Virus record (IMG/VR): IMGVR_UViG_2681813004_000022
Length of the DNA stretch: 38,772 nt
Strand: one strand, 5' to 3'
Origin: a virus
Lineage: Duplodnaviria > Heunggongvirae > Uroviricota > Caudoviricetes
A program made the translations under genes and the position numbers. Positions within the stretch are counted from its first letter, which is position 1. Each line of letters begins with the position of its first letter. Positions 1 through 21,006 of this stretch are shown here, piece after piece. The notes under the pieces are model-generated. The model searched no databases and had not been told where the DNA came from. It saw only the letters and a list, made by a program, of their open reading frames with translations.

Positions 1-1053
1 TTACGGGGTAATGCCAACCGCTGCCGCCACTTTGTCGCCACTTGGCAGCGTTGCCAGAGGATTGAAACGGAGCGCCGTTTCCAGATGATCCGGTGCCAGA
101 TGAGCGTAACGCATAGTCATTTTTATATCGTGATGTCCGAGGATTTTTTGCAAAGCAAGGATATTTCCACCCGACATCATGAAATGCGCCGCAAACGTAT
201 GGCGCAGAACGTGTGTCAGTTGACCGCGAGGGAGCACGATTGACGTTTTTTCCATCACGGATAAAAATTGAAAATAGCAGTCTGTGAAGAAATTGAACCC
301 ATCAAGCGCCATGATCTCTTCATAAAGCTCTTTACTGATAGGGATGCTTCTGTTTTTCTTCCCCTTCGTTCTTACAAAGGTAATTCGGTATTTAGTCACC
401 TGTGATCGGGTAAGGTTTATTGCTTCTCGCCAGCGTGCGCCTGTGCTTAAGCATATCTTGACTACCAGTGCCAGAATTGGGTCCTGACGTTTGCAATCAG
501 CCAGCAGTTCAACAATCTGCTCATGGGTAAGCCATGCCATCTCTTTTTCTGCGATGGTGAATTTTCGCATGTTCTCCAGTGGGTTTGGATACGACCATTC
601 GCCCAGGCGGGATAGTTCGCTAAAAACACTACTTAGATAGCTTTGCTCCAGGTTAATGGTGACCGGGCTTGCTCCTTTCTTCCATTTCTCGCTGAAGTAG
701 ATCTCACCTGTCAGGCGTTTATCTCGATAGTGGGCAAACATTTTAGAGGTGAGATCGGTTGCAAGGGGATTGCCCAGAGCGTCAACCATCAACAGCAATT
801 TATCATAGACATGCTGCCCAGCGGTTAGAGATTTACCATGTAGTTTGAACCATAGCTCAACCACGTCTTTCAGTGTTCGACGATCCACTGATTCTCCCAG
901 CCAGGGCTTTGCTTCGGTTTCTTCCATCGTATGGCGCTCAAAAGCCAGAGCTTCGCCTTTGGTGGCGAATTGTTTACGCACACGACGCCCACTACGTCCG
1001 GCGGGGTAACATTCGCAAAGCCATTTTCCTGTGGTGAGTTTTCGTACTGCCAT
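1..1053 (-). CDS. int: Tyrosine integrase (P2 Int-like)
   Basis: ORF 1-1131 minus; likely ATG at 1053 preceded by GGAGGG RBS. C-terminal RHTFA...GH...Y catalytic motif region and N-terminal similarity to P2 Int (MA..KL..G). Confidence 0.9.
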   Translation of the reverse strand: MAVRKLTTGKWLCECYPAGRSGRRVRKQFATKGEALAFERHTMEETEAKPWLGESVDRRTLKDVVELWFKLHGKSLTAGQHVYDKLLLMVDALGNPLATDLTSKMFAHYRDKRLTGEIYFSEKWKKGASPVTINLEQSYLSSVFSELSRLGEWSYPNPLENMRKFTIAEKEMAWLTHEQIVELLADCKRQDPILALVVKICLSTGARWREAINLTRSQVTKYRITFVRTKGKKNRSIPISKELYEEIMALDGFNFFTDCYFQFLSVMEKTSIVLPRGQLTHVLRHTFAAHFMMSGGNILALQKILGHHDIKMTMRYAHLAPDHLETALRFNPLATLPSGDKVAAAVGITP

Positions 1054-1239
1054 AAAAAATGCCCTCCAATAGAGAGCATTTTTACTGTATATATAACCAG
1101 TGTCAATGTATGAAATCCTGCGACCATACATCTCACTGAAGCCATAATGAAGTTGGCTATTTTTTGCTATGTGAGTATGTGACTTTTGCGGTTAGCCTGC
1201 GGCTCATTGTTATATTAGGCGCAGATATAAAAGCAAAAT

Positions 1240-1431
1240 TTATCGCGAGTTTTTAGTACAGATTTTTTTTGATTTACTAATAGTTCCATCATTGCAAACG
1301 AACTTTCCATCGGAGGTACAGTGAGAGACACCTCCCTTTTTCCCAGAACAAGGATAATTTTTAGCATAGGTAGTTAGTGGGTTTAATAACAAAGAGCATG
1401 ATAAAACCACAAAAAATACCTTACCAAGCAT
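1240..1431 (-). CDS. Small secreted cysteine-rich protein (moron between int and repressor)
   Basis: 63-aa ORF with strong GGGAGGA RBS, N-terminal hydrophobic signal-like segment and 6 Cys; visibly AT-rich surroundings. Confidence 0.5.
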
Positions 1432-1446
1432 AGTTTCCTCCCGATA

Positions 1447-2022
1447 TTACCTAACGTACTTAATTGTTAAACTTATAATTTTCCCAATTATTTCAACATC
1501 TTCTATCTTGCACTCGAAGGCTCTGTTTCCACCTTCAACGAAGATTCTTCCACCGGGTAAACGAGTAATGTCGCGGATTGTTATTTCGCCATCAATACTT
1601 ATTACCCATTTACCGTCACGTATATCATCAAATTCTTTATCACAAATAAATTCAGAATTGTTATCTGTGATGACAAAAGGTTTTTTAAACGTAGAGGGTA
1701 GAAATCCCTTATCAAAAATATAAAAACCGTCTTCACGCAAGGCACCATCAGATAATACATATTTAGCAACTTCCATAGTATTTGTATTACCTGAAGTTTG
1801 CTTTGAACCATGTCCGGTTGTGAGCCAATTAAGCGAGGTGCCCGTTTCAAGGGCGCACTGGATTACCCATTCTGCTGGGAATGAGTCACGCATGTAGCGT
1901 GTGGCGAGTGTACTTTTAGAGATTCCTAAATGATCGCACAACGCCTGTCGAGTTTTGAATCCATAAGCTTCTACCATGCGCTCTATAGCGCCTCGTCCGC
2001 CTTTCTCCAAATTCATGGTCAC
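1447..2022 (-). CDS. cI: CI-like immunity repressor (186 CI size class, 191 aa)
   Basis: Position next to int, N-terminal HTH-like segment (TRQALCDHLGISKSTLATRY), size like 186 CI. Start may be GTG at 2022 or ATG at 2016. Confidence 0.8.
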   Translation of the reverse strand: MTMNLEKGGRGAIERMVEAYGFKTRQALCDHLGISKSTLATRYMRDSFPAEWVIQCALETGTSLNWLTTGHGSKQTSGNTNTMEVAKYVLSDGALREDGFYIFDKGFLPSTFKKPFVITDNNSEFICDKEFDDIRDGKWVISIDGEITIRDITRLPGGRIFVEGGNRAFECKIEDVEIIGKIISLTIKYVR

Positions 2023-2040
2023 TCCAAGTGAACTTTTATC

Positions 2041-2069
2041 TTGACGATTTCACTGTGCGATCGTATGTT
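2041..2069 (+). promoter_or_regulatory. Candidate sigma70 early promoter (pR-like), TTGACG-17bp-TATGTT
   Basis: TTGACG at 2041-2046, 17-bp spacer, TATGTT at 2064-2069, located in the repressor/early-gene intergenic switch region. Confidence 0.3.
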
Positions 2070-2141
2070 TATGGTGTTCACAAAATACAAACGATCCGTA
2101 TTCGTCCTGATTAATCATCATTAAACGAGGAATGTTGCATC

Positions 2142-2363
2142 ATGAGACCTAACATTTCAATCACTCTTACCACGCCTCATGTGACTATTGAACGCTATAG
2201 CGAGCTGACAGGGCTGTCCATCGATACCATCAATGACATGTTGGCTGACGGACGCCTTATCCGTCACCGTCTGCGCAAAGATAAAAAACGTGAAAAAGTG
2301 ATGATCAACATAGCAGCCATGACCGTTGATGCGCTTTCAGAATGCAATCTAAACCTTAATTAG
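2142..2363 (+). CDS. Apl/Cox-like small DNA-binding regulator/excisionase
   Basis: First rightward ORF after the switch region, 73 aa, GAGGA RBS; position equals cox (P2) / apl (186). Confidence 0.55.
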
Positions 2364-2395
2364 TTCGATTCTGAAATACATCAGAGGCATTGACC

Positions 2396-2905
2396 ATGTT
2401 TGATTACCAAGTTTCCAAACATCCACATTTTGATGAAGCCTGTCGTGCATTCGCATTGCGCCACAACCTAGTGCAACTGGCAGAACGTGCAGGCATGAAT
2501 GTGCAGATTCTGCGGAACAAGCTGAACCCAGCTCAACCTCATTTATTAACCGCACCAGAAATCTGGTTGCTTACCGATCTGACTGAAGATTCAACGCTGG
2601 TAGATGGCTTTCTGGCACAGATTCACTGCCTGCCATGTGTACCGATTAATGAGGTGGCAAAAGAGAAACTGCCGCATTACGTCATGAGTGCAACTGCAGA
2701 GATAGGGCGTGTCGCGGCAGGTGCGGTTTCTGGCGATGTAAAAACCAGTGCAGGCCGTCGTGATGCGATCAGCAGCATTAACTCTGTTACACGACTGATG
2801 GCGCTGGCTGCTGTTTCATTGCAGGCCCGTTTACAGGCTAATCCTGCGATGGCGAGTGCAGTTGATACCGTGACTGGCCTCGGTGCTTCATTCGGTTTGC
2901 TGTGA
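2396..2905 (+). CDS. cII: CII-like phage regulatory protein
   Basis: About 169 aa from ATG 2396, second gene of the early operon as in phage 186; recognised by position and size, not verified by search. Confidence 0.55.
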
Positions 2906-2912
2906 GGTGCTT

Positions 2913-3113
2913 ATGCTGACGAAAGAACCATCATTTGCATCGCTGCTGGTAAAACAAAGTCCGGCAATGCACTACGGTCACGGCTGGATCATGGGTGAGG
3001 ATGGTAAACGCTGGCATCCGTGCCGTTCACAAGATGAATTGCTGGCAGAACTATCTACGAAAAAACGGGGGAACAAATGGCTATTGAAGGCGCTGCGGCG
3101 ACTGTTCCATTAA
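2913..3113 (+). CDS. Hypothetical early protein (Fil-like position)
   Basis: ORF with GAGGTG RBS and ATG 2913; early operon context. Confidence 0.45.
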   Translation: MLTKEPSFASLLVKQSPAMHYGHGWIMGEDGKRWHPCRSQDELLAELSTKKRGNKWLLKALRRLFH

Positions 3114-3418
3114 GACCCGGTGAACGCCTGAATGGACTTAATCATATTGCGGAGTTAAGGGCGAAAGTTTTTGGTTTGAATATTGAGTCAGAGCTTGAGC
3201 GGTTTATTAAAGATATGCGTGATCCTCGGGATATCAATAATGAACAAAATAAACGGGCACTGGCTGCCATATTCTTTATGGCAAAAATTCCAGCTGAACG
3301 TCATAGCATCAGCATTAATGAGCTGACCACTGACGAAAAGCGGGAGTTGATTAAAGCAATGAATCATTTTCGTGCAGTGGTGAGCTTATTTCCCAGACGG
3401 CTAACCATGCCGAATTAA
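3077..3418 (+). CDS. Hypothetical early protein
   Basis: 113-aa ORF, GGGGGAA RBS before ATG 3077, overlaps the previous gene end. Confidence 0.45.
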   Translation: MAIEGAAATVPLRPGERLNGLNHIAELRAKVFGLNIESELERFIKDMRDPRDINNEQNKRALAAIFFMAKIPAERHSISINELTTDEKRELIKAMNHFRAVVSLFPRRLTMPN

Positions 3419-3485
3419 CCAACTAATGAAATTAATGGCGTAAACCCGCCGGGCATCCCTTTATCTAAATTCAGGAGAATTGCTT

Positions 3486-3719
3486 ATGCGTAATATTGAA
3501 ACCCTCACGACCAAAACCGGACCGAATGATGCAGGTCTTAATCTTTTACTGACAGAGGCTCGTCTGGAAGAACGCCGGGCAAGGGCTGAAGCAATGGCTG
3601 CTCGCCTCGATAGCCTGGCGTATCATATCACCTCCCGCCAGCTAAACCACGTCGAAGCGGCAGAACTGCTGCGTGTGACTGCTGAAGCAATCCAGAACGA
3701 AGCGCAGGAGATCCACTGA
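3486..3719 (+). CDS. Hypothetical early protein
   Basis: ORF with AGGAG RBS; stop overlaps the next start (TGATG). Confidence 0.45.
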   Translation: MRNIETLTTKTGPNDAGLNLLLTEARLEERRARAEAMAARLDSLAYHITSRQLNHVEAAELLRVTAEAIQNEAQEIH

Positions 3720-3946
3720 TGGCTGATGCAATGGATCTCGTACAGCAGCGCGTTGAAGAAGAACGCCAACGCCATATCCGTGCTGCCCGTGCCAAAACGC
3801 CGGGCGTGTCCCGCGTGCTTTGCGTTGAGTGTGAAGCGCCAATTCCGCCAGCACGCCGCCGTGCCATTCCGGGTGTGCAGCTTTGCATTACCTGTCAGGA
3901 AATCGCAGAGCTGAAAGGCAAACATTACAACGGAGGTGCTGTATGA
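3719..3946 (+). CDS. TraR/DksA-family C4 zinc-finger protein
   Basis: 75 aa with CxxC...CxxC pairs (CVECEAPIP...LCITCQ) typical of the TraR/DksA zinc finger; start overlaps the upstream stop. Confidence 0.65.
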   Translation: MADAMDLVQQRVEEERQRHIRAARAKTPGVSRVLCVECEAPIPPARRRAIPGVQLCITCQEIAELKGKHYNGGAV

Positions 3947-4800
3947 GCACCATCCTGAAATGGGCAGGAAATAAAACCGCCATAATGTCCGAACTGAAAA
4001 AGCATCTTCCTGCTGGCCCGCGACTGGTTGAACCTTTCGCGGGTTCCTGTGCAGTGATGATGGAGACGGATTATCCCAGCTATCTTGTTGCGGATATTAA
4101 TCCTGATTTAATCAACCTCTATAAAAAGGTTGCTGCTGATTGTGAGGCGTTTATATCTCGTGCCAGAGCTTTATTTGAGGAAGCAAACAGGGAGGTGGCT
4201 TATTACAACATAAGGCAGGAGTTTAATTACTCCACTGAAATTACTGATTTCATGAAAGCGGTATATTTCCTGTATCTCAATCGTCACGGTTACCGTGGTT
4301 TATGTCGCTATAACAAGAGCGGGCATTTCAACATTCCCTACGGTAATTATAAAAATCCGTATTTCCCTGAAAAAGAAATTCGCGCATTTGCAGAGAAAGC
4401 CCAGCGGGCAACGTTTATCTGCGCCAGCTTTGATGAAACGCTGGCGATGTTGAAGGCGGGGGATGTGGTGTATTGCGATCCGCCTTATGACGGTACGTTT
4501 TCCGGCTATCACGCTGACGGCTTTACTGAAGATGACCAGTATCACCTGGCATCCGTTCTTGAACATCGGTCATCAGAAGGACATCCGGTCATTGTTTCTA
4601 ACAGTGACACATCCCTGATCCGTTCGCTGTATCGCAATTTTACTCACCACTATATCAAGGTAAAACGCAGCATCGGCGTAGCAGCTGGTGAGAGTAAATC
4701 AGCAACAGAAATCATTGCTGTTTCCGGGCCGCGCTGCTGGGTGGGATTTGATTATTCGCGTGGCGTGGATAGTTCTGCCGTGTACGGAGTACGTGCATGA
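3943..4800 (+). CDS. dam: DNA adenine methyltransferase (Dam-like, N6-A MTase with DPPY motif)
   Basis: Motifs [32 protein letters not shown] and DPPY align with E. coli Dam as I recall it; GGAGG RBS; ATG overlaps the upstream stop. Confidence 0.9.
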
Positions 4801-7211
4801 GCCATGCCGATATGAGCAACTGCTGCGGCTTTAACGAGGCTGCCGCATCGTTCTCATGGAACAGCCCGAAAAAGGCCATTAACCCTTATCTGGACCCGGC
4901 GGAAGTTGCGCCGGTTTCTGCGCTTTCAAACCTGATCACTCTGTACGCTGCCGATAACGAGCAGGAACAACTGCGCCGCGAGGCACTGAGTGATCAGGTC
5001 TGGGAGCGTTATTTCTTTAATGAATCCCGTGATCCTGTCCAACGCGAAATAGAGCAGGATAAGCTCATTAGCCGGGCAAAGTTGGCGCATGAGCAGCAGC
5101 GTTTTAACCCGGACATGGTCATTCTGGCAGACGTCAGCGCCCAGCCCTCCCATATCAGCAAGCCGCTGATGCAACGTATTGAATACTTCAGCAGCCTGGG
5201 CAGGCCAAAGGCTTATTCCCGCTATTTACGTGAGACGATTAAGCCATGTCTGGAACGACTGGAGCATGTACGCGACAGCCAGCTATCTGCATCTTTTCGT
5301 TTTATGGCAAGCCATGTAGGGCTGGACGGCCTGCTGATTCTGCCTGAAATGAGTCAGGATCAGGTGAAACGCCTGTCTACCCTTGTCGCTGCGCATATGA
5401 GCATGTGCCTTGATGCAGCTTGTGGTGATTTGTATGCCACCGATGACGTTAAGCCAGAAGAAATCCGCAAGACATGGGAAAAGGTGGCAGCGGAAACCCT
5501 GCGTCTGGATGTCATCCCGCCTGCGTTTGAGCAACTCCGTCGGAAAAGAAACCGCCGTAAACCCGTGCCCTATGAACTCATTCCGGGTTCGCTGGCGCGT
5601 ATGTTGTGCGCCGACTGGTGGTACCGGAAATTATGGAAAATGCGTTGCGAATGGCGGGAAGAGCAGTTGCGTGCTGTCTGCCTGGTCAGCAAAAAAGCAT
5701 CTCCCTATGTCAGCTATGAAGCCGTGATGCATAAACGTGAGCAGCGCCGCAGGTCACTGGAGTTTTTCCGTTCTCATGAACTGGTGAACGAAGAGGGCGA
5801 CACGCTGGATATGGAAGACGTGGTAAACGCCAGCAGCAGCAACCCGGCGCACCGCCGCAATGAGATGATGGCCTGTGTTAAAGGTCTGGAGCTTATCGCG
5901 GAAATGCGCGGTGACTGCGCCGTTTTCTACACCATTACCTGTCCGTCACGTTTCCATTCCACGCTCAATAACGGCAGACCAAACCCAACCTGGACAAATG
6001 CGACGGTAAGACAAAGCAGCGATTATCTGGTCGGCATGTTTGCTGCATTTCGTAAGGCGATGCACAAAGCCGGGTTGCGCTGGTATGGCGTGCGGGTGGC
6101 TGAGCCGCATCATGACGGTACAGTTCACTGGCACCTGTTGTGTTTCATGCGCAAAAAAGACCGCCGCGCCATTACTGCATTGTTGCGTAAGTTTGCCATC
6201 CGTGAAGACCGCGAGGAACTGGGTAATAACACTGGTCCACGCTTTAAATCTGAGCTGATAAACCCGCGCAAAGGAACGCCGACAAGCTACATCGCGAAAT
6301 ACATCAGTAAGAACATTGACGGGCGTGGTCTGGCTGGCGAGATCAGCAAGGAAACGGGTAAATCCCTGCGTGATAACGCTGAATACGTTAATGCCTGGGC
6401 GTCTCTGCATCGTGTTCAGCAATTCCGCTTCTTTGGTATTCCGGGACGTCAGGCTTACCGTGAACTTCGCTTGCTGGCTGGTCAGGCGGCAAGGCAACAG
6501 GGTGACAAAAAAGCAGGTGCGCCGGTACTGGATAACCCGCGTCTTGATGCCATTCTGGCTGCTGCTGATGCTGGTTGTTTTGCCACCTACATCATGAAGC
6601 AGGGCGGCGTACTGGTTCCCCGCAAATATCACCTCATCAGAACCGCTTATGAAATCAACGAAGAGCCAACCGCCTATGGCGATCACGGTATTCGTATTTA
6701 TGGCATCTGGTCACCCATTGCAGAGGGCAAGATCTGCACTCATGCAGTGAAGTGGAAAATGGTTCGTAAGGCCGTTGACGTTCAGGAGGCGGCAGCCGAC
6801 CAGGGCGCTTGCGCCCCTTGGACTCGTGGCAATAACTGTCCCCTTGCTGAAAATTTGAACCAACATGAGAAAGATGAATCAGCAGATGGGGATACCAGAA
6901 CGGACATTACCTGCATGGATGACAAGGAATTGCACGATTACCTGCACAGTATGAGCAAAAAAGAGCGCCGGGAACTGGCAGCAAGATTGCGCCTGGTTAA
7001 ACCGAAACGGCGTAAAGACTACAAACAGCGAATTACAGAGTATCAGCGTCAGCAGCTCGTCTATGAACTGAAGTCCAGAGGATTTGATGGCAGCGAGAAA
7101 GAGGTCGATTTGCTCCTTTGCGGTGGCAGTATTCCGTCAGGAGCAGGCCTGCGTATCTTCTATCGGAACCAGCGTTTGCAGGAAGATGATAAGTGGCGGA
7201 ACCTGTATTAA
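4797..7211 (+). CDS. A: Replication initiation endonuclease (P2 gpA-like rolling-circle initiator)
   Basis: 804 aa; HUH-like motif (GTVHWHLL) and paired tyrosines (YIAKYISK) characteristic of gpA-type initiators; ATGA overlap with dam. Confidence 0.85.
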
Positions 7212-7364
7212 TCACGCGGGTTAACAATTCGTGCTCTTAATAATACCAGGCATATCAGGCTGATGAACGTAAAAAAACGTTTTACATCAGTAAGATTATT
7301 ATATACTGTAAATATAAACAGTGGTTATATGTACAGTATTGCGTATGGTGTTATAGGAGGAAAG

Positions 7365-7553
7365 ATGCAGGACTATTTTTTGGAGTCTTTGAAGCTCCAG
7401 CGCATTGATTTTTTTCTTAAGCTTGTAGCGGCTAGTGAGTGTAGTGATGAAGAGAAGGGGCTAGCTCTGCAGTGGGTTTCTGAATTGACTGATGAGTTGA
7501 TGGCGAAAATTCGAAGCCATGAATACAGTAGGTCGATGGATGTAATCAGTTGA
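7365..7553 (+). CDS. Small acidic hypothetical protein (62 aa)
   Basis: AGGAGG RBS 5 nt before ATG 7365; followed by an intrinsic terminator. Function unknown. Confidence 0.4.
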   Translation: MQDYFLESLKLQRIDFFLKLVAASECSDEEKGLALQWVSELTDELMAKIRSHEYSRSMDVIS

Positions 7554-7585
7554 GCTTGTTTCGTTAGGACTTGATAAGGGAACCG

Positions 7586-7608
7586 AAAAGGGGCATTAAG
7601 CCCCTTTC
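7586..7608. terminator. Bidirectional intrinsic terminator between convergent genes
   Basis: GGGGC-ATTAA-GCCCC hairpin flanked by an A-run on the left and a T-run on the right. Confidence 0.5.
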
Positions 7609-7620
7609 TCATAAGTTGAT

Positions 7621-7920
7621 TTAGTTGTTACCCAAAGAGCCGGCCATGGCTGCATATTTAATTTCTTCGCTGGGTATTTCAGGATGTAGTTGAATTTGCC
7701 TGATGATATAGCCAGGAACTTCTTCACTCCACAGTTTCGCCGCGTCCTTACAGACCTTATACGCGAAGTCTCTATTCTCAAAGGCATAGGATTTTCCGTA
7801 TGCATATTGCTGACAGGCATGAACATAAGCTCCGAAGTCGCCGTCTTTATCTGGCAAAGCACATCCAGCTAAGGCTATGATGATTGCTACTAACGTAAAG
7901 GAGAAAGTTATACGTTTCAT
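7621..7920 (-). CDS. Small lipoprotein (99 aa), function unknown
   Basis: Signal peptide with lipobox LAGC (MKRITFSFTLVAIIIALAGC). Confidence 0.6.
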   Translation of the reverse strand: MKRITFSFTLVAIIIALAGCALPDKDGDFGAYVHACQQYAYGKSYAFENRDFAYKVCKDAAKLWSEEVPGYIIRQIQLHPEIPSEEIKYAAMAGSLGNN

Positions 7921-8028
7921 GGTCTCTTTCTAAGCGTTTAGCATTATTTAACTAAGGGGTATCTGCCGTGATTTGGTAGTCCCTGATATATATTCTCAGG
8001 GACTATGCTGAAGTAGCTTTAATTTTGA

Positions 8029-8835
8029 TTATTTAGAAAGGTACTTATCTCTAAGTTGATTCAGTCTGTCAGCATCGCGTTCTGAAAACTCGGCGTCACC
8101 ATAGATCGATTTCCCATCTGCGTCTTCAAGGCCAATGACTGTGACGGTAAATATAGCATCAGCCGGAACTTTAAGTTTTCCCCAATCAGAGTATCTATTA
8201 GGGGCTAATTTCCAGTTGGCTTTCTCACCTGGTTCCAGACCTCCAGAAATTTTATAGTTGAAGACGTCAGAGAACCAAGGGACGCTTCTTCCTGGGCTGG
8301 CAATAACTCCTTTGAAGAATACTCTGGCAACCGCTTTGTCTGTTTCGTTTTCAACGCTAATATCTAGAATTGGCTGATCATTGCCGTAATCCTCTTTCTG
8401 GAAATAAAAACGGGAACGTTCGACCTTGAAGGCTTTCATTTTTTCCGCAGCCTGTGTTGCAGAGGTTTGTTTGGCTTCCAGTTCTTTTATTTCTTGCAGA
8501 GCCTGTTCTTTCTCTCTCTTCTCACGCTCAAGGCGAATAGTTTGTGCGTAATTTATAACCTCATCACCAGTTTTACCTTCCAACGCTGACTTAATTTTTG
8601 TTTCGTAGACGTCCCCAGAAGACGTTCCAGCCTGCATTAGCTCTCTCATGTTGATTTGGCTAAAGGCAACGACTTTAACTGCATCATCAAACTGAGCTTT
8701 TTTATCTGCAGGTAAGGACTCTCTTACTTTTTGAATGGACTCTTTCATCGACTGATCGCTTGATGCATCGATCTTCGGTTTGTCACAAGCAGTAAGCAGC
8801 AGAGCAAAAGCAATTACGCCAGTTAATTTCTTCAT
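8029..8835 (-). CDS. Lipoprotein (about 268 aa), function unknown
   Basis: Probable start MKKLTGVIAFALLLTAC (lipobox LTAC) at 8835 with AGGGA RBS; the longer ORF-track start at 8907 would translate a hairpin/T-run. Confidence 0.6.
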   Translation of the reverse strand: MKKLTGVIAFALLLTACDKPKIDASSDQSMKESIQKVRESLPADKKAQFDDAVKVVAFSQINMRELMQAGTSSGDVYETKIKSALEGKTGDEVINYAQTIRLEREKREKEQALQEIKELEAKQTSATQAAEKMKAFKVERSRFYFQKEDYGNDQPILDISVENETDKAVARVFFKGVIASPGRSVPWFSDVFNYKISGGLEPGEKANWKLAPNRYSDWGKLKVPADAIFTVTVIGLEDADGKSIYGDAEFSERDADRLNQLRDKYLSK

Positions 8836-8852
8836 ATCCCTATCCCAATCGT

Positions 8853-8884
8853 AAAAAAACAAGGCTAATCCTAACAGGATTAGC
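8853..8884 (-). terminator. Terminator-like hairpin plus T7 run in the leader immediately 5' of the lipoprotein gene
   Basis: On the minus strand GCTAATCC-TGTTA-GGATTAGC followed by CTTG and TTTTTTT, ending about 18 nt before the ATG. Confidence 0.3.
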
Positions 8885-9357
8885 GGGCATGACAAACTCA
8901 TAGCCATATAGGTGTGCTGTATAAATTAGCGGGATGAGAAAGCCTGCACAGACCCTCATGTTGAAACTTGATTTTAGCTCAAAAGAGCTGACACTAAATA
9001 ACTGCGCGGAATAATGCTCCACTTTCGGTTAGCCCTTGGCCCTTGCTGGGTAAGGCGTGGGGCCGTTTTCTTCGCCTGATCCTGCTGTATCTGGCCTACA
9101 GTATGTTGTCCTTACGCGACATGCCACATGTCAGTAAACGGCAGGTGTAGCAGTATTAGACGCAGCTATTTAGTGTGTATTAAGCTGGCTCATATTTATG
9201 ACTGGTTTCAAGGTTTGACCGATTTTCATGTCATGCATGTCTATGCTGCATGAGTTCGCATGATCGTTTGAGGATCGGTTTGGCTAAGACATGCCAGAAC
9301 TGGCGGGCTTTTGCTCATGTCATGCAGGTGCATGAAAACTACTACATAAAGCGGGCA

Positions 9358-9376
9358 GGCGTGGCGGGGATACGAG
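9358..9376. other. Candidate cos site (cohesive-end sequence)
   Basis: GGCGTGGCGGGGATACGAG: the first 13 nt match the 186 cos as I recall it (GGCGTGGCGGGGAAAGCAT; P2 GGCGAGGCGGGGAAAGCAC), followed by CGCGCGC as in P2. Lies between A and Q as expected. Confidence 0.4.
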
Positions 9377-9523
9377 CGCGCGCAAGGTATAGAAACAGTC
9401 GTTTGTTTACAAACAGATACTATGATTTTCAATGTTCTTTCAAATTGTTGCTTTAAGATAGCAGGTAGATGTTTGTAGTTGTTGCGTGAACTGATAAGCT
9501 TCAACAACTATCGAGGAAAGGAT

Positions 9524-10591
9524 ATGAAGCGGCTAACTGAAGAACAAATTGAACATTCTTTGATCAGAGCAAGGAAGATTGCGAAGCGGGAGTCAAGAAA
9601 GCTTTCTGGTGGAAGACGGATGCTACAGCCCATGCGGGTATTCTCTCGTGTGAGAATACCCGCGCCTGCGTCATTGGACTTATTTAATACTAAAAATTAC
9701 AAACTATTTATAGAGTTTATCACTTTAATCAGAGATTACATCAATGATGGTGAGAAAATTTTAATAGATTTCAGAAATACAAAATCTCTGAAAGCATGTG
9801 CAGTAATCGTATTGTATGCACATATTGACTTTTTACAAAGGCAAACAAAAGATAAAAATATAATTTCTATTACTACGTGCGGTTCATCCAGGGCAAATAA
9901 CTGGTTTAAAATATGTGGTATTTGGGGGATTACAGGGTTTCAGCGTATAGCTGCAGATAAGCTTAATTCAATGGAAATTGTTTCCGCTGTTGCAGGCAAA
10001 ACTAGAGATGATCATGAAAGTGCCGAAGCAAGACAAAAAATTAAAAATATTCTACGTTATATAAAAGATACCATTTATGAAGGTAAGATTTCCGCTTCGG
10101 ATGGTGTGAAATTATATGCAGCCTTAACTGAATCTATTAGCAATGTTGGTCTACATGCGTATTCAAATGAAGAACAGTTCTCTGAATTTATTGAGGACAT
10201 TGGTAAAAGATGGTGGATATTGGCACACAAAGTCGAAGAACAACTATTTTTGATGGTGTATGATATGGGAGAAGGTATCCCAGTTACATTGGTTAAAAAA
10301 GACTTTTTCACATTTATCGCTCAGATATTTAATCCTAAGACGGATTCTGATAAAATATTCGCGGCTGTACAGTATGGTGAGACAAGAATGAATAGTCAGA
10401 AGCATGGTAAAGGATTACCTGATATGAAAAGGTATGTTGTAGATAACCCTGAGGGGCAGTTACATATTTTTAGTGGAATGGGACGATATTCTTATGATGC
10501 TGAAAATAATGTTGAAGATAAATTTGATCTGCCATACTCCATAGGTGGAACCCTTATTCAATGGAATGTAAGTTTGAGAGGTGCTGAATGA
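9524..10591 (+). CDS. GHKL-type (histidine-kinase-like) ATPase / putative Ser kinase, cargo gene 1
   Basis: Bergerat-fold motifs in order: N-box ESISNVGLHAY, G1 YDMGEGIP, G2 HGKGLPD. About 170 aa of N-terminal extension. GAGGAAAGG RBS before ATG 9524. AT-rich. Confidence 0.65.
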   Translation: MKRLTEEQIEHSLIRARKIAKRESRKLSGGRRMLQPMRVFSRVRIPAPASLDLFNTKNYKLFIEFITLIRDYINDGEKILIDFRNTKSLKACAVIVLYAHIDFLQRQTKDKNIISITTCGSSRANNWFKICGIWGITGFQRIAADKLNSMEIVSAVAGKTRDDHESAEARQKIKNILRYIKDTIYEGKISASDGVKLYAALTESISNVGLHAYSNEEQFSEFIEDIGKRWWILAHKVEEQLFLMVYDMGEGIPVTLVKKDFFTFIAQIFNPKTDSDKIFAAVQYGETRMNSQKHGKGLPDMKRYVVDNPEGQLHIFSGMGRYSYDAENNVEDKFDLPYSIGGTLIQWNVSLRGAE

Positions 10592-10908
10592 AAATCAAAG
10601 AGATACATGTTGCTGAAGATTTTTCAGATGTTCCCTATGGCCGCTATGATGAGGATGGTCCTGATAATGGACAACGTTTCCGTGAAAAGTATCTTTTGAA
10701 AGCCATCCAAGATTATGATGAGGTGCACGTGTACCTTGATGGTGCTATGGGTTATGGTTCTTCATTCTTGGAAGAGGCGTTTGGTGGACTTTATAGAACA
10801 AATAATATAGATAAAGCTATAATTAGGAAAAAATTAAAAATATTTACTGATTTGGATTTCCTCAAGGATAGTATATGGGGATATATTTCTGATGCTAAAA
10901 AGGAGTGA
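10588..10908 (+). CDS. Small STAS-like protein (anti-sigma-antagonist-like), cargo gene 2
   Basis: 106 aa; VHVYLDGAMGYGSSFLEEAFGGL resembles the STAS core, and I recall the DUF4325 STAS-like family having a conserved SFL motif. ATGA overlap with gene 1. Confidence 0.55.
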   Translation: MKIKEIHVAEDFSDVPYGRYDEDGPDNGQRFREKYLLKAIQDYDEVHVYLDGAMGYGSSFLEEAFGGLYRTNNIDKAIIRKKLKIFTDLDFLKDSIWGYISDAKKE

Positions 10909-11402
10909 TGTTCATGGATGAACTTCCGGTTTATCTGCGGTTATTACAATACCTTGCTAGTTCAGGTGTGATTGCAATTCTAACAGCCTTGATTGGTTGG
11001 GTTTTTGTTTATAGAAACTCCCGTGCGTTGCAAAAGAGGAGTGAAACATGGGCAATTGTAAAAAATGTTTCAGATAATTTAAAGGAAATTGAATCTGCAT
11101 CAAGAAAGTTTTGGATACCGGGAGATTCAAAAGAAATTGATGCAATGTCATTTCAAAATGAGATAACAGCACTTCTTGCGGAGACCGAGCGGTGGTTGAA
11201 TCATCTAAAACAACGCATTAATATCGAAGGTGACTATAAACCTTTGATTGCTGATTTATTCAAAGATGCTACATCTAATATTGAAAAAGCACAGGAGTAT
11301 GATAAAAGTCAAAGGACAAGAATTAGTGTATTAGTGTCAAAAAGGGCGAAAATAATTAAATCTCTAATTGATGAGTCTTATCAGAAAAAATTCTTAAAGT
11401 GA
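10905..11402 (+). CDS. Single-pass membrane protein with helical C-terminal domain, cargo gene 3
   Basis: 165 aa; hydrophobic helix LRLLQYLASSGVIAILTALIGWVFV near the N-terminus, charged helical remainder; start overlaps gene 2 stop. Confidence 0.6.
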   Translation: MMFMDELPVYLRLLQYLASSGVIAILTALIGWVFVYRNSRALQKRSETWAIVKNVSDNLKEIESASRKFWIPGDSKEIDAMSFQNEITALLAETERWLNHLKQRINIEGDYKPLIADLFKDATSNIEKAQEYDKSQRTRISVLVSKRAKIIKSLIDESYQKKFLK

Positions 11403-11410
11403 TAATTTGT

Positions 11411-11439
11411 TACGGCACGGTAGTGCCGTAGTTTTTTTT
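11411..11439 (+). terminator. Intrinsic terminator closing the cargo operon
   Basis: ACGGCAC-GGTA-GTGCCGT hairpin followed by eight T residues, 9 nt after the gene 3 stop. Confidence 0.6.
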
Positions 11440-11487
11440 CTTATTATGTGTTGAGCGATGGATGTCCTATTAAGTGATGTAAATGTA

Positions 11488-12516
11488 TCAGAATGAATAT
11501 ATTTCAAATTCTATTATTTTTTTATCAAGCCATTCATTTATCTCTCCTAAGCGCTTTTGTAATGGTATAAGTTCGTTTCGTACAAACACTTTACTTGCTT
11601 TCTCCACATCCCCAAACCCCCCAACATTATTCGGCATAATCCCCATCATTTGCGGCGGCACGCGGTGCGCTGCCATCATGTCATCCCGACTCACGTTCTT
11701 GATATTTAGAAACTCATCCTTCGCCGCAACTTCTGACAAAGGGATGATCTGAAGGCCGTCCTTTTTGCCGTTAGGCGAGTACATAAACAGGTTGCGGAAG
11801 TTACCCGGACCTTTGGCACTTTTCATTGCATTGCGGAGGTTGTTCACGTCCTCCTGGTTCTGCGCAGCATCGGTCATGTACATGATGAAGCCTGCATGAC
11901 TACCGTTAATGTAATACTTGCGGCGGAACAGCGTGGCAGACTCATTGAGCAGGGCGGACGGAATGGCAGAAAGATAGCCGGGCAGGCCGTAGATCTCCTG
12001 GTTAATGTCCGGTTCCATCAGATGAAAAATGCTGCCTTTCGTGAACTGATACGGCTGGGTTGTCATACCGTATTGCACAAACCAGTAGGTATCCAGGTCT
12101 AACCCGCGTCGGGTGTATTTTGCCAGAGCAGGCTCAAGGGCGATAACTTCACCGAAGCGGTTCGTGCGTTTCTCCAGGTAGGCGTTACCAAATACCAGAT
12201 AGTCCTGCACAAAACGTGAAAAAGCCTGCTGGCTGAGCAGCGGGTGAGGGATGTAGGTACTGGTCAGAATGTTGCATTTTACTGCAATCGGTGAGCTGTG
12301 ATGCACGGCAGCGCGGAAGGTTCGTGCCAGTCCGTCAAAGCTGACGGGCGGCTCATACCAGCGGTCCATCTGTACGCATTCCACATAGTCCAGCAGTTCA
12401 CGGCGGTCCAGAACAGGAACGGGATCGCCAAAGCTGAATGCTTCGGCTGAAGTCTGGCTTTTATGCTTGAGCTGATTCGTCGCCGCAGCGCGGTTTTTCT
12501 TACTCTTTCCCATCAA
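11488..12516 (-). CDS. Q: Portal protein (P2 gpQ-like)
   Basis: 342 aa (P2 Q is about 344), immediately downstream of P on the same strand. Confidence 0.9.
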   Translation of the reverse strand: MMGKSKKNRAAATNQLKHKSQTSAEAFSFGDPVPVLDRRELLDYVECVQMDRWYEPPVSFDGLARTFRAAVHHSSPIAVKCNILTSTYIPHPLLSQQAFSRFVQDYLVFGNAYLEKRTNRFGEVIALEPALAKYTRRGLDLDTYWFVQYGMTTQPYQFTKGSIFHLMEPDINQEIYGLPGYLSAIPSALLNESATLFRRKYYINGSHAGFIMYMTDAAQNQEDVNNLRNAMKSAKGPGNFRNLFMYSPNGKKDGLQIIPLSEVAAKDEFLNIKNVSRDDMMAAHRVPPQMMGIMPNNVGGFGDVEKASKVFVRNELIPLQKRLGEINEWLDKKIIEFEIYSF

Positions 12517-20244: not shown

Positions 20245-21006
20245 TTATATGGCTAAGTTATTCCTACATGTGGAGATAAAGTCACAGTAAAGCTGATGAA
20301 TTGTAGAACTCCACTCATTGGCTATTTTTATATTTTCCTTTGTTTGAGGTAGTAATTCCATCACCATAGCTCGATCTCTGTCAGTAAGCATGCTAAACAT
20401 ATAGTTATTGATATTGTGCGATTTATAAGCGAGAAAATAATTAAACTTTATTATTTCACTGTAAAGATGAGTGGCTTTATCTTCAATTTCATTGTCATGA
20501 AAATGTTGATCTGCATGACCCCACCCGTATTCAAGATTACTAATATCTTTTGTATTATTATCATGATAGGAGTTTTCAAAATTATGGTCTTTTAAGAATT
20601 CAATTGATAACGAGGTTGTTGGTAGAATATCAATAAATGCCTCATAAAGTTTAACGTCTGCTACTCTTTTTCTTTCCTGTATTTCTTTTTGGTTATTCTC
20701 TTTTAGAATTTCTTGGTATATATGGGGGACTTTTATTAATAGGTGAAAGACTAGCCCGGATAGAATTAAAGTTAAAGCAACCCCACTACTTGGTGTAATG
20801 CTATCAATCTTAAGAAGGCTTATTTCTGAATTAGTTGTTTTGTTGTAAAAATCAATTATAAGGTTTACGAATAATAAATATGTGGGTGCAGGTAGTGCAA
20901 GAATACCGATCCCTGCAGTGAGTAAAGTCCATGTTACCTTATTGCTAAATTCAGGAAATGCCTTTCTTATTAATTTTTTTATAAGAAGATTTAAATTGTC
21001 TTTCAT
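20245..21006 (-). CDS. AT-rich membrane protein of unknown function (moron between S and V)
   Basis: 253 aa, two N-terminal hydrophobic helices; opposite strand to the late genes; codon usage visibly AT-rich unlike the flanking phage genes. Confidence 0.6.
   Translation of the reverse strand: MKDNLNLLIKKLIRKAFPEFSNKVTWTLLTAGIGILALPAPTYLLFVNLIIDFYNKTTNSEISLLKIDSITPSSGVALTLILSGLVFHLLIKVPHIYQEILKENNQKEIQERKRVADVKLYEAFIDILPTTSLSIEFLKDHNFENSYHDNNTKDISNLEYGWGHADQHFHDNEIEDKATHLYSEIIKFNYFLAYKSHNINNYMFSMLTDRDRAMVMELLPQTKENIKIANEWSSTIHQLYCDFISTCRNNLAI

What the first reader, a model, noticed from the sequence alone, without database searches (positions are those of the whole stretch)
9524..11402. Candidate undescribed defence/signalling module: GHKL ATPase-kinase + STAS-like protein + membrane protein
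Three translationally coupled genes (each start overlaps the previous stop) form an AT-rich cassette between the cos-like site and Q, ending in a strong intrinsic terminator. Gene 1 carries an ordered N-box/G1/G2 Bergerat ATPase signature (ESISNVGLHAY, YDMGEGIP, HGKGLPD) like RsbW/SpoIIAB-type serine kinases but with an extra N-terminal domain of about 170 aa. Gene 2 looks STAS-like, i.e. a possible phosphorylatable antagonist. Gene 3 is a single-pass membrane protein that could be the effector. A partner-switching kinase/antagonist pair with a membrane component in a prophage cargo hotspot does not match any named defence system I can recall, so an abortive-infection or superinfection-exclusion role is a hypothesis only.
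Basis: partly seen in the sequence, partly recalled or inferred. Interest (0 to 1): 0.85.

Follow-up and report, generated by a model that had tools for sequence, protein, structure and literature searches.

The report
Kinase–STAS–membrane protein prophage cassette
A P2-like E. coli prophage carries three tightly linked genes (a serine-kinase-like ATPase, a small STAS protein with an invariant serine, and a membrane-anchored helical-bundle protein) that look like an untested, membrane-acting relative of the VapKSC phage-defence toxin–antitoxin system described in 2026.

Summary
Three co-oriented, AT-rich genes lie between the cos-like site and portal gene Q of a P2-like prophage and end in a strong terminator.

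- **Gene 1 (K):** a basic N-terminal helix, its own STAS domain and a SpoIIAB/RsbW-type GHKL kinase domain. All ATP-binding motif residues are invariant across the family.
- **Gene 2 (S):** a Pfam DUF4325 STAS-like protein. Its invariant Ser59 aligns with the proven phospho-acceptor serines of VapS and CapS.
- **Gene 3 (T):** one N-terminal transmembrane helix followed by a cytoplasmic four-helix bundle, with no enzymatic domain.

K is homologous over both domains to VapK, and S shares a Pfam family with VapS (Chambers et al., EMBO J 2026). The PIN toxin VapC is replaced here by T.

K-S-T is conserved in 22 of 22 distant genome loci. It is also cargo in P2-like, P4-like and lambdoid temperate elements. 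Rousset et al. 2022 listed the cassette as an untested P2-hotspot candidate.

Best reading, by inference only: an infection or damage cue activates K, K phosphorylates S on Ser59, and S releases T to damage the membrane (abortive infection). This would be a new variant of a known kind. No function has been tested.

The parts
9351..9370 (.). cos-like core (GCGGGCAGGCGTGGCGGGGA). It marks the upstream boundary of the cargo slot.
   Evidence: Exact unique match to the sequence flanking cos in the cloned P4-like element pFR90 of Rousset Table S2. The canonical P2 19-mer differs by more than 3 mismatches.
9524..10591 (+). Gene 1 (K), 355 aa: a basic N-terminal helix (aa 1-30), a STAS domain (about aa 37-137), a helical linker, and a SpoIIAB/RsbW-type GHKL kinase domain (about aa 190-352).
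10588..10908 (+). Gene 2 (S), 106 aa: a DUF4325 STAS-like protein with an invariant Ser59 in GYGSSFLEEAFGGL. Its start overlaps the g1 stop (ATGA).
   Evidence: Pfam PF14213 E 3.5e-12, 46 bits against a cut-off of 23. In 24 family members P16, R19, G28, R32, S59, F60, E63, F65 and G67 are invariant. hhalign places S59 on VapS S48 and on CapS S54 (weak). VapS is itself DUF4325, E 2.7e-17.
10900..10905 (+). Shine-Dalgarno AAGGAG for gene 3.
   Evidence: Read directly from the sequence. It lies 8 nt upstream of ATG 10914.
10914..11402 (+). Gene 3 (T), 162 aa (an in-frame GTG 10905 or ATG 10908 start is possible but unlikely). It has an N-terminal transmembrane helix (about aa 14-32) carrying a small-residue face (G18, A21, A25, G28, W29), followed by a cytoplasmic four-helix bundle.
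11409..11440 (+). Intrinsic terminator closing the operon, convergent with portal gene Q.
   Evidence: 10-bp stem with 5 GC pairs and a 4-nt loop, followed by TTTTTTTCTT.
11488..12516 (-). Portal gene Q, the downstream boundary of the cargo slot. It is not part of the module.
   Evidence: ORF. Annotated as phage portal protein in the identical RefSeq locus.

Best explanation
The cassette is a three-component phospho-switch module of the CapK/VapK-CapS/VapS kind. It is carried as accessory cargo in the cos-proximal hotspot of a P2-like prophage.

**Shown here.**
- K is a STAS plus SpoIIAB-type GHKL kinase-like protein with an intact ATP-binding site.
- S is a DUF4325 STAS protein. Its invariant Ser59 sits at the position phosphorylated in VapS, CapS and SpoIIAA.
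- T is an inner-membrane protein with an N-out/C-in topology and a cytoplasmic four-helix bundle.
- The three genes are co-inherited as a unit across phyla and across unrelated temperate elements.

**Inferred by analogy with VapKSC.**
- In the resting lysogen, unphosphorylated S binds the cytoplasmic bundle of T and keeps it inert.
- A cue produced by an infecting phage activates K. The cue could be single-stranded DNA as for CapK/VapK, or something else.
- K phosphorylates S on Ser59. Phospho-S lets go of T.
- T self-associates through the small-residue face of its transmembrane helix and compromises the membrane.
- This stops growth or kills the cell before the invader completes its cycle, which would be abortive infection or exclusion.
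- No phosphatase is encoded, so the switch is one-way.
For: **K domain structure.**
- AF2 pLDDT 79.
- The N-box, G1 and G2 residues are invariant over 25 sequences.

**Homology to the tested system.**
- K against VapK: hhalign E 4.9e-8, probability 94.8%, both domains.
- VapS and g2 both fall in Pfam DUF4325.
- The invariant S59 aligns with VapS S48 and CapS S54. Both are experimentally phosphorylated or phosphomimetic-sensitive (PMC13373217).
- The gene order kinase-STAS-third gene is the same as in vapKSC.

**Co-inheritance.**
- In 22 of 22 distant genome loci (Gamma-, Beta- and Alphaproteobacteria, Phycisphaerae, Verrucomicrobia), a K-like gene is followed by an S-like gene and then by a 140-217-aa protein with an N-terminal TM helix.
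- The profile search finds 1,354 clusters (50% identity) at E<1e-30.

**Cargo context.**
- Homologues in Klebsiella, Serratia and Enterobacter (53-87% identity) occupy the same cos-Q slot.
- A second K-S-T lineage, 31-35% identical, occupies that slot in other prophages.
- A third lineage sits in the P4 hotspot.
- In Marinobacter phage AS1 the triad lies directly downstream of the CI-like repressor gene, co-oriented with it, like rexAB in lambda.
- The gpA-gpQ region is an experimentally supported defence hotspot (PMC9122126).

**T topology and fold.**
Against: - Nothing about this triad has been tested: not kinase activity, S-T binding, T toxicity or phage resistance.
- K reaches only 19 bits on Pfam HATPase_c, below the 26.4-bit cut-off.
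- T has no recognisable effector domain, and its four-helix bundle matches only generic bundles. It could equally be a sensor or an anchor.
- g2 and VapS show no BLASTP similarity, and the profile match is modest (E 2.9e-4, probability 40%).
- VapK F54, the predicted ssDNA-stacking residue, aligns with the variable, non-aromatic S88 of g1. The activating signal therefore cannot be transferred from VapK.
- Outside Enterobacterales the neighbours are mostly integrases or ordinary genes, with few known defence genes.
- No sigma-70-like promoter was found upstream.
- P2 hotspots also carry non-defence cargo.
Confidence: 0.5

Rival explanations
1. T is not the killer but a membrane-anchored sensor or scaffold. 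It would detect an envelope event, such as phage DNA injection or membrane stress, and pass the signal to K and S. The real output would be phosphorylation of other host or phage proteins by K, or sequestration of a target by S.
For: - The closest structural matches to T's bundle include four-helix-bundle sensor domains of histidine kinases and chemoreceptors.
- T has no enzymatic domain.
- S carries invariant residues (P16, R19, G28, R32) that are absent from VapS and could bind a different partner.
- K has a conserved basic N-terminal helix of unknown role.
Against: - The sensor-type bundles matched are periplasmic. T's bundle is predicted to be cytoplasmic in 22 of 22 homologues, leaving only 0-27 residues outside the membrane.
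- The cassette would then lack any effector, yet it is strictly a three-gene unit with a terminator.
- In the homologous VapKSC system, the third gene is the effector.
Confidence: 0.2
2. The triad is a toxin-antitoxin or stress-response module. It would stabilise the prophage or satellite (addiction), or respond to general DNA damage, without a specific role against other phages.
For: - VapKSC behaves as a toxin-antitoxin system, and its authors note that the line between stress response and immunity is blurred.
- Many non-enterobacterial loci sit beside integrases or ordinary genes rather than in defence islands.
- P2 hotspots also carry maintenance cargo such as partition systems.
Against: - The triad is repeatedly acquired at cargo slots in which anti-phage systems have been validated: the P2 gpA-gpQ region and the P4 hotspot.
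- It also sits next to a phage repressor gene, a position known for exclusion genes.
- VapKSC did protect against phage Bas42.
- At least three diverged lineages compete for the same slots, a pattern typical of arms-race cargo.
Confidence: 0.17
3. It is a classical partner-switching module of the SpoIIAB-SpoIIAA or RsbW-RsbV type that controls a sigma factor or prophage transcription.
For: K's kinase domain is structurally closest to SpoIIAB and RsbW, and its N-box (ESISNVGLHAY) resembles theirs. S is STAS-like.
Against: - No sigma factor and no PP2C phosphatase gene is present in the cassette or among the annotated prophage genes.
- S has no DNA-binding domain, unlike CapS. It is 106 aa with no wHTH.
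- The operon is followed by a terminator and a convergent gene, not by a regulated operon.
- The profile match to CapK covers the GHKL domain only (E 2.7e-4).
Confidence: 0.03
4. It is a phage-intrinsic function, with T acting as an accessory holin or lysis-timing factor or a packaging helper next to cos, regulated by K and S.
For: - T gives a weak PHROG holin hit (phrog_20, E 0.0059).
- The cassette is adjacent to cos and to the packaging genes Q and P.
Against: - The cassette occurs in only 20 of 5,426 complete E. coli genomes. It is replaced by unrelated cargo in other P2-like phages, so it is dispensable.
- It is also found in chromosomal loci with no phage genes.
- The prophage has its own holin, lysozyme and spanin genes.
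Confidence: 0.03

Closest known systems
VapKSC (VapK kinase, VapS STAS antitoxin, VapC PIN toxin); Chambers et al., EMBO J 2026, PMC13373217
   Same: - Three-gene operon in the order kinase, small STAS protein, third gene.
- K and VapK share the STAS+GHKL architecture and are homologous over both domains (hhalign E 4.9e-8).
- S and VapS are both Pfam DUF4325. Each is about 110 aa with a short helical C-terminus and has a conserved Ser at the same aligned position.
- No phosphatase is encoded in this cassette, and none is described for vapKSC.
   Different: - The third gene is a membrane-anchored four-helix-bundle protein, not a PIN nuclease.
- K has an additional conserved basic N-terminal helix and a longer inter-domain linker (355 aa against 302 aa).
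- The VapK F54 position is not aromatic in K.
- S has a conserved PxGR...DG..G..FR insert that VapS lacks.
- The two K families do not find each other by phmmer.
CapK-CapS (DNA-damage-activated kinase and STAS-wHTH repressor upstream of CBASS, Bub and other immune operons), same paper
   Same: A GHKL kinase with an internal STAS domain phosphorylates a conserved Ser (CapS 'DSS54F', against g2 'GSS59F') at the start of helix 2 of a STAS protein.
   Different: - K has no HTH domain, and the profile match covers the GHKL part only (E 2.7e-4).
- S has no wHTH DNA-binding domain.
- The cassette does not sit upstream of an immune operon. It ends in a terminator.
SpoIIAB-SpoIIAA and RsbW-RsbV anti-sigma kinase/antagonist pairs
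   Different: - There is no sigma-factor partner and no PP2C phosphatase.
- Kinase and STAS domains are fused in K, in addition to the separate STAS protein.
- The module is mobile-element cargo rather than a developmental or stress regulon.
Candidate systems of the P2 and P4 hotspots (Rousset et al. 2022, PMC9122126): P2 Table S5B #61 'DUF4325' and P4 Table S1 #69 'HATPase_c | DUF4325'
   Same: Entry #61 lists this very K protein, differing at one residue, and the same S protein called from a start two codons further in. WP_052928646 and WP_130723475 appear in Table S5A. Entry #69 is a diverged K-S-T triad with a 1-TM third protein.
   Different: - These are catalogue entries only. Neither sequence appears among the cloned and tested systems of Table S2.
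- Row #61 pairs our K and S with the T protein of a different, diverged triad.
Anti-phage systems with transmembrane effectors (for example the P4/P2-hotspot Hydrolase+TM, RT-nitrilase+TM and 2TM-1TM-TIR systems of Rousset et al.)
   Same: A cytoplasmic sensor or enzyme is paired with a small membrane protein that lacks any enzymatic domain and is presumed to act as the effector. The hotspots are the same.
   Different: No sequence relationship was found. The PADLOC models gave no hit for K, S or T. Signalling here would go through protein phosphorylation rather than a nucleotide messenger.

Membership tests
GHKL / Bergerat-fold ATPase, SpoIIAB/RsbW-type serine kinase | Bergerat fold of the C-terminal domain | tested here: met
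GHKL / Bergerat-fold ATPase, SpoIIAB/RsbW-type serine kinase | Ordered N-box (E..N), G1 (DxGxG) and G2 (GxGL) ATP-binding motifs, conserved across the family | tested here: met
   E203, N207, H211, D247, G249, G295 and G297 are invariant, and G251 nearly so, in 25 sequences down to 23% identity.
GHKL / Bergerat-fold ATPase, SpoIIAB/RsbW-type serine kinase | Pfam HATPase_c match above the gathering threshold | tested here: not met
   19 bits, E 0.002, against a cut-off of 26.4. VapK, an accepted member, is likewise below threshold at 23.4 bits.
GHKL / Bergerat-fold ATPase, SpoIIAB/RsbW-type serine kinase | ATP-dependent phosphorylation of a STAS serine | not testable with these tools
   Needs a Phos-tag or in vitro kinase assay.
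STAS / DUF4325 (gene 2) | Pfam PF14213 match above the gathering threshold | tested here: met
   46.3 bits against a cut-off of 23, E 3.5e-12.
STAS / DUF4325 (gene 2) | Conserved Ser/Thr at the N-terminus of helix 2, the phospho-acceptor of SpoIIAA, CapS and VapS | tested here: met
   S59 is invariant in 24 sequences. It aligns to VapS S48 and to CapS S54 in 'SSF'. Its structural position was not modelled.
VapKSC | Kinase with a CapK-like STAS domain followed by a GHKL domain | tested here: met
VapKSC | Small STAS protein with a short C-terminal region encoded immediately downstream | tested here: met
   g2 is 106 aa and overlaps the g1 stop. It is in the same Pfam family as VapS.
VapKSC | Third gene encodes a VapC-like PIN nuclease toxin | tested here: not met
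   g3 has no PIN or any other Pfam, NCBIfam or PADLOC match. It is modelled as a TM helix plus a four-helix bundle. The third gene is of this type in all 22 distant loci.
VapKSC | Conserved aromatic residue (VapK F54 / CapK W68) for ssDNA activation | tested here: inconclusive
   F54 aligns with S88, a variable non-aromatic column. The paper's equivalence of F54 and W68 is structural, so another aromatic residue could serve. No K-ssDNA model could be made.
VapKSC | Protects against phage, and the toxin is neutralised by the STAS protein | not testable with these tools
   Requires plaque and toxicity assays.
CapK-CapS regulators | N-terminal HTH in the kinase and C-terminal wHTH in the STAS protein | tested here: not met
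   g1 has only a basic helix before its STAS domain, and the CapK match covers the GHKL domain only. g2 ends after the STAS domain at 106 aa, against 183 aa for the CapS construct translated here.
CapK-CapS regulators | Located directly upstream of a regulated immune operon | tested here: not met
   The cassette is followed by a terminator and the convergent portal gene.
Classical partner-switching module | Sigma-factor (or equivalent) partner of the kinase, and a PP2C phosphatase to reset the antagonist | tested here: not met
   Neither is present among the annotated genes of the identical prophage locus or in the homologous loci.
P2 cos-proximal defence hotspot cargo (Rousset 2022) | Lies between replication gene A and portal gene Q, next to cos, and varies between related prophages | tested here: met
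   Gene map and cos-like core. Only 20 of 5,426 genomes carry it. The slot holds a different triad in L034-L037. The cassette's proteins are listed in Table S5.
Any system in PADLOC-DB v2.0.0 (2023) | HMM match to a known or candidate defence protein | tested here: not met
   No hits for g1, g2 or g3 at E up to 1. VapK and VapS also have no specific model there, so the library predates this kind of system.

The most novel reading that the evidence does not exclude
K-S-T is a distinct, widespread anti-phage abortive-infection system. A serine-kinase phospho-switch on a STAS protein would unleash a membrane-anchored four-helix-bundle executioner. The logic resembles kinase-triggered four-helix-bundle killers such as RIPK3-MLKL.

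Its sensor input would differ from the ssDNA sensing of CapK and VapK. The F54-equivalent position is not conserved, and K has a family-specific basic N-terminal helix.
Probability: 0.3. Interest if true: 0.75.

Novelty: new variant of a known kind. Interest (0 to 1): 0.6.

Why it matters
- If the model is right, the CapK/VapK-type kinase-STAS switch is a general, portable trigger that bacteria and their temperate phages couple to very different outputs: a transcriptional repressor, a PIN RNase, and here a membrane protein.
- The membrane version looks like a large branch. The profile search finds 1,354 clusters at 50% identity below E 1e-30. The authors of VapKSC report 289 vapKSC and 443 capKS loci, although those counts are not directly comparable.
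- It would add a defence system that current annotation tools miss and would assign a function to a catalogued but untested P2/P4-hotspot candidate.
- It offers a simple genetic system (S59A/E, K N207A, T alone) for asking what signal this kinase family senses and how a four-helix bundle on one TM helix harms a cell.

Tried and rejected
- **PADLOC v2.** A scan of the three proteins found nothing. VapK and VapS are also absent from that 2023 library, so this says little about novelty.
- **NCBIfam.** No meaningful hit.
- **PDB sequence search with g2.** Only chance-level portal-protein matches at E 0.3. Rejected.
- **BLASTP of g2 against VapS.** No alignment. The relationship shows only at the Pfam and profile level.
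- **Canonical P2 cos 19-mer.** Not found within 3 mismatches. The cos-like site was placed instead by an exact 20-mer shared with a cloned P4-like cos region.
- **Promoter scan.** No sigma-70-like site upstream of g1, and the overall count was at the chance level.
- **Rousset row #61.** It suggested that one K+S pair could carry a different third gene. On checking, that third protein belongs to a separate, diverged K-S-T triad, so I dropped the idea of a recent effector swap.
- **Defence-island enrichment around the 22 distant loci.** Only scattered hits (PD-T4-6-like kinase, mad6, MkoA), alongside 6 integrases. I do not claim defence-island association outside Enterobacterales.
- **Literature searches.** Searches for DUF4325, STAS with anti-phage terms, and partner-switching with phage defence found no description of the membrane version.
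Full report
**What is in the window.** The window is a P2-like (186-type immunity) prophage of E. coli integrated next to rcdA. The identical sequence occurs in 20 of 5,426 complete E. coli genomes, always chromosomal.

The finding lies in the stretch between replication gene A and portal gene Q. Three + strand genes are present: g1 at 9524-10591 (355 aa), g2 at 10588-10908 (106 aa), and g3 ending at 11402.

- The g1 stop and g2 start overlap (ATGA).
- For g3, the AAGGAG at 10900-10905 and the RefSeq and homologue length of 162 aa point to ATG 10914. This is 5 nt after the g2 stop, not the overlapping GTG at 10905.
- The block has 33-37% GC, against 53-59% in the structural genes.
- It ends in a 10-bp stem plus T-run terminator at 11409-11432.
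- A cos-like core at 9351-9370 matches exactly the cos flank of a cloned P4-like element.

**Gene 1 (K).** Pfam gives only a sub-threshold HATPase_c hit (19 bits), but the family alignment and the structure are clear.

- In 25 homologues down to 23% identity, E203, N207, H211, D247, G249, G295, G297 and T343 are invariant. These are the N-box, G1, G2 and G3 positions of a Bergerat ATPase.
- The N-box ESISNVGLHAY has the SpoIIAB-like E..N...H.Y form.

The column that would hold a phospho-acceptor in this internal STAS domain (C92) is not conserved, so it is unlikely to be a substrate.

**Gene 2 (S).** It is Pfam DUF4325, a 'STAS-like domain', well above threshold (46 bits). In 24 family members at 30-71% identity, P16, R19, G28, R32, S59, F60, E63, F65 and G67 are invariant. 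Ser59 lies in the motif GYGSSFLEEAFGGL.

**Gene 3 (T).** It has no family in Pfam, NCBIfam or PADLOC.

- The AF2 model (pLDDT 89, pTM 0.73) is one N-terminal transmembrane helix that runs on into a four-helix bundle.
- In 22 homologues, the 15 residues after the TM helix carry +1 to +4 charge (sum +53), against -5 before it. The bundle is therefore cytoplasmic.
- The TM helix carries invariant small residues on one face (G18, A21, A25, G28) followed by W29. This fits helix-helix self-association, although that is my inference.

**The triad is a conserved unit.** A profile of K finds 3,961 representative clusters at E≤1e-3 and 1,354 at E≤1e-30, nearly all full length.

In 22 loci retrieved from species-representative genomes, every K-like gene is followed directly by an S-like gene. 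These loci come from Gamma-, Beta- and Alphaproteobacteria, Phycisphaerae and Verrucomicrobia. Each S-like gene is followed by a 140-217-aa protein with an N-terminal TM helix and shared motifs: GW..F..NSR.L.R.SE after the helix, and a later [YF]W. Two cases missed by the automatic pass were found by eye.

Closer homologues in Klebsiella, Serratia and Enterobacter (53-87% identity) occupy the same cos-Q slot of P2-like prophages.

- A second triad (382+137+214 aa, 31% and 35% identical to K and S) fills that slot in other E. coli and Klebsiella prophages.
- A third lineage is in the P4-satellite hotspot.
- In Marinobacter phage AS1 the triad lies directly downstream of the CI-like repressor gene, co-oriented with it. 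In lambda that position holds the exclusion genes rexAB (my knowledge).

Outside Enterobacterales the neighbours include six integrases but few known defence genes.

**What is already known.** Rousset et al. 2022 (PMC9122126) defined the gpA-gpQ, cos-proximal region of P2-like phages as a hotspot of anti-phage systems.

- Their Table S5A lists this cassette's proteins WP_052928646 and WP_130723475. Table S5B lists the system as #61 'DUF4325' with 68 occurrences. Table S1 lists the P4 version as #69 'HATPase_c | DUF4325' with a 1-TM third protein.
- Neither sequence appears in the table of cloned systems, so the cassette was catalogued but not tested.

Chambers et al. (EMBO J 2026, PMC13373217) then described two related systems.

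- **CapK-CapS.** CapK (HTH-STAS-GHKL) is activated by ssDNA and phosphorylates CapS (STAS-wHTH) on Ser54 to de-repress immune operons.
- **VapKSC.** VapK (STAS-GHKL) is proposed to phosphorylate the STAS antitoxin VapS on Ser48, releasing the PIN toxin VapC. VapKSC protected E. coli about 100-fold against phage Bas42.
- That paper does not mention a membrane-protein version. My other literature searches found none either.

**Tests of the relationship.** I took VapK, VapS, CapK and CapS sequences from that paper's source data. The numbering of W68, N218, K237, K239 and S54 checks out.

- The K family profile aligns with VapK over 256 columns covering both domains (probability 94.8%, E 4.9e-8).
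- It aligns with CapK only over the GHKL domain (E 2.7e-4).
- VapS is itself DUF4325 (E 2.7e-17).
- The S family profile aligns with VapS at E 2.9e-4 and places Ser59 on VapS Ser48.
- The local match to CapS puts 'GSS59F' on 'DSS54F'.
- Direct BLASTP of g2 against VapS finds nothing, so these are distinct subfamilies.
- VapK F54, the predicted ssDNA-stacking residue, aligns with the variable, non-aromatic S88 of K.

K and S therefore belong to the CapK/VapK-CapS/VapS kind and are closest to VapKSC. The defining third component of VapKSC, a PIN nuclease, was tested and is not present.

**Most likely mechanism.**

- Shown: the domain folds, the intact ATP site, the invariant Ser at the phospho-acceptor position, the membrane topology of T, strict three-gene co-inheritance, and mobile-element cargo status.
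- Inferred: S holds T inactive through T's cytoplasmic bundle. A cue from infection or DNA damage activates K. K phosphorylates S on Ser59. Freed T oligomerises and damages the inner membrane, aborting the infection. With no phosphatase encoded, the switch is irreversible.

I give this about 0.5. The K-to-S phosphorylation step alone is more likely (about 0.75). The claim that T is the effector is the weakest link.

The rivals are as follows.
- T is a sensor or anchor, with another output (0.2).
- The triad is an addiction or stress toxin-antitoxin module without anti-phage specificity (0.17).
- It is classical sigma-factor partner switching (0.03).
- It is a phage-intrinsic lysis or packaging function (0.03).

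**Verdict.** It overstated novelty and remains untested on function. The cassette is best described as a new variant of a known kind: a VapKSC-like kinase-STAS switch with a membrane four-helix-bundle protein in place of the nuclease. It is widespread, recurrent in P2, P4 and lambdoid cargo slots, and absent from the PADLOC v2.0.0 (2023) defence-model library. It is a good, cheap experimental target rather than a categorically new system.

Noticed in passing
window 20245-21006 (- strand): A second AT-rich island (GC 0.31-0.41). It encodes a 253-aa orphan protein with hydrophobic N-terminal segments, inserted antisense between the virion-morphogenesis gene (S-like) and baseplate gene V. It has no Pfam or PADLOC match. 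It may be another cargo slot of this prophage.
   Followed up: partly
window 8029-8907 (- strand), and 7263-7920: On the A-proximal side of cos, the hotspot carries a DUF6694 lipoprotein gene (phrog_7468) and two or three small orphan ORFs. In E. coli L725, which has the identical K-S-T cassette, this gene is replaced by an unrelated 386-aa hypothetical protein. The two sides of cos therefore vary independently.
   Followed up: partly
L034 4419-6645 (also L035-L037): A second, strongly diverged kinase-STAS-TM triad (382+137+214 aa) occupies exactly the same cos-Q slot in other E. coli and Klebsiella P2-like prophages. Its third protein has its TM helix in the middle, after a domain of about 60 aa. 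Its S protein scores below the Pfam DUF4325 threshold (21.5 bits against 23).
   Followed up: partly
Rousset et al. 2022, Table S5B row 61: The catalogue row pairs the K and S proteins of this cassette with the third protein of the other, diverged triad. The published 'system 61' is therefore a composite, and its count of 68 occurrences may pool two lineages.
   Followed up: partly
L038 2899-5277 (Marinobacter phage AS1, MK088078): This is the only deposited phage genome with a K homologue. It carries the full triad directly downstream of a CI-like HTH repressor gene and co-oriented with it, divergent from cro. That is the position of rexAB in lambda.
   Followed up: partly
window 10588-10908 against PHROGs: g2 matches only the last 100 positions of phrog_5816, whose profile is 441 positions long. 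This suggests that some phages encode a larger protein with a C-terminal DUF4325 domain, possibly a kinase-STAS fusion.
   Followed up: no
L025 (metagenome contig), 1-12029: A 31%-identical K homologue, with S and T genes present but uncalled, lies between a 976-aa protein and a 2,137-aa DEAD/Helicase_C/MZB helicase. That size and domain set recall the large helicases of known defence systems.
   Followed up: no
window 9401-9414: A short inverted repeat, GTTTGT-TT-ACAAAC, lies between the cos-like core and the g1 start. It could be an operator or part of the packaging signal, or simply chance.
   Followed up: no
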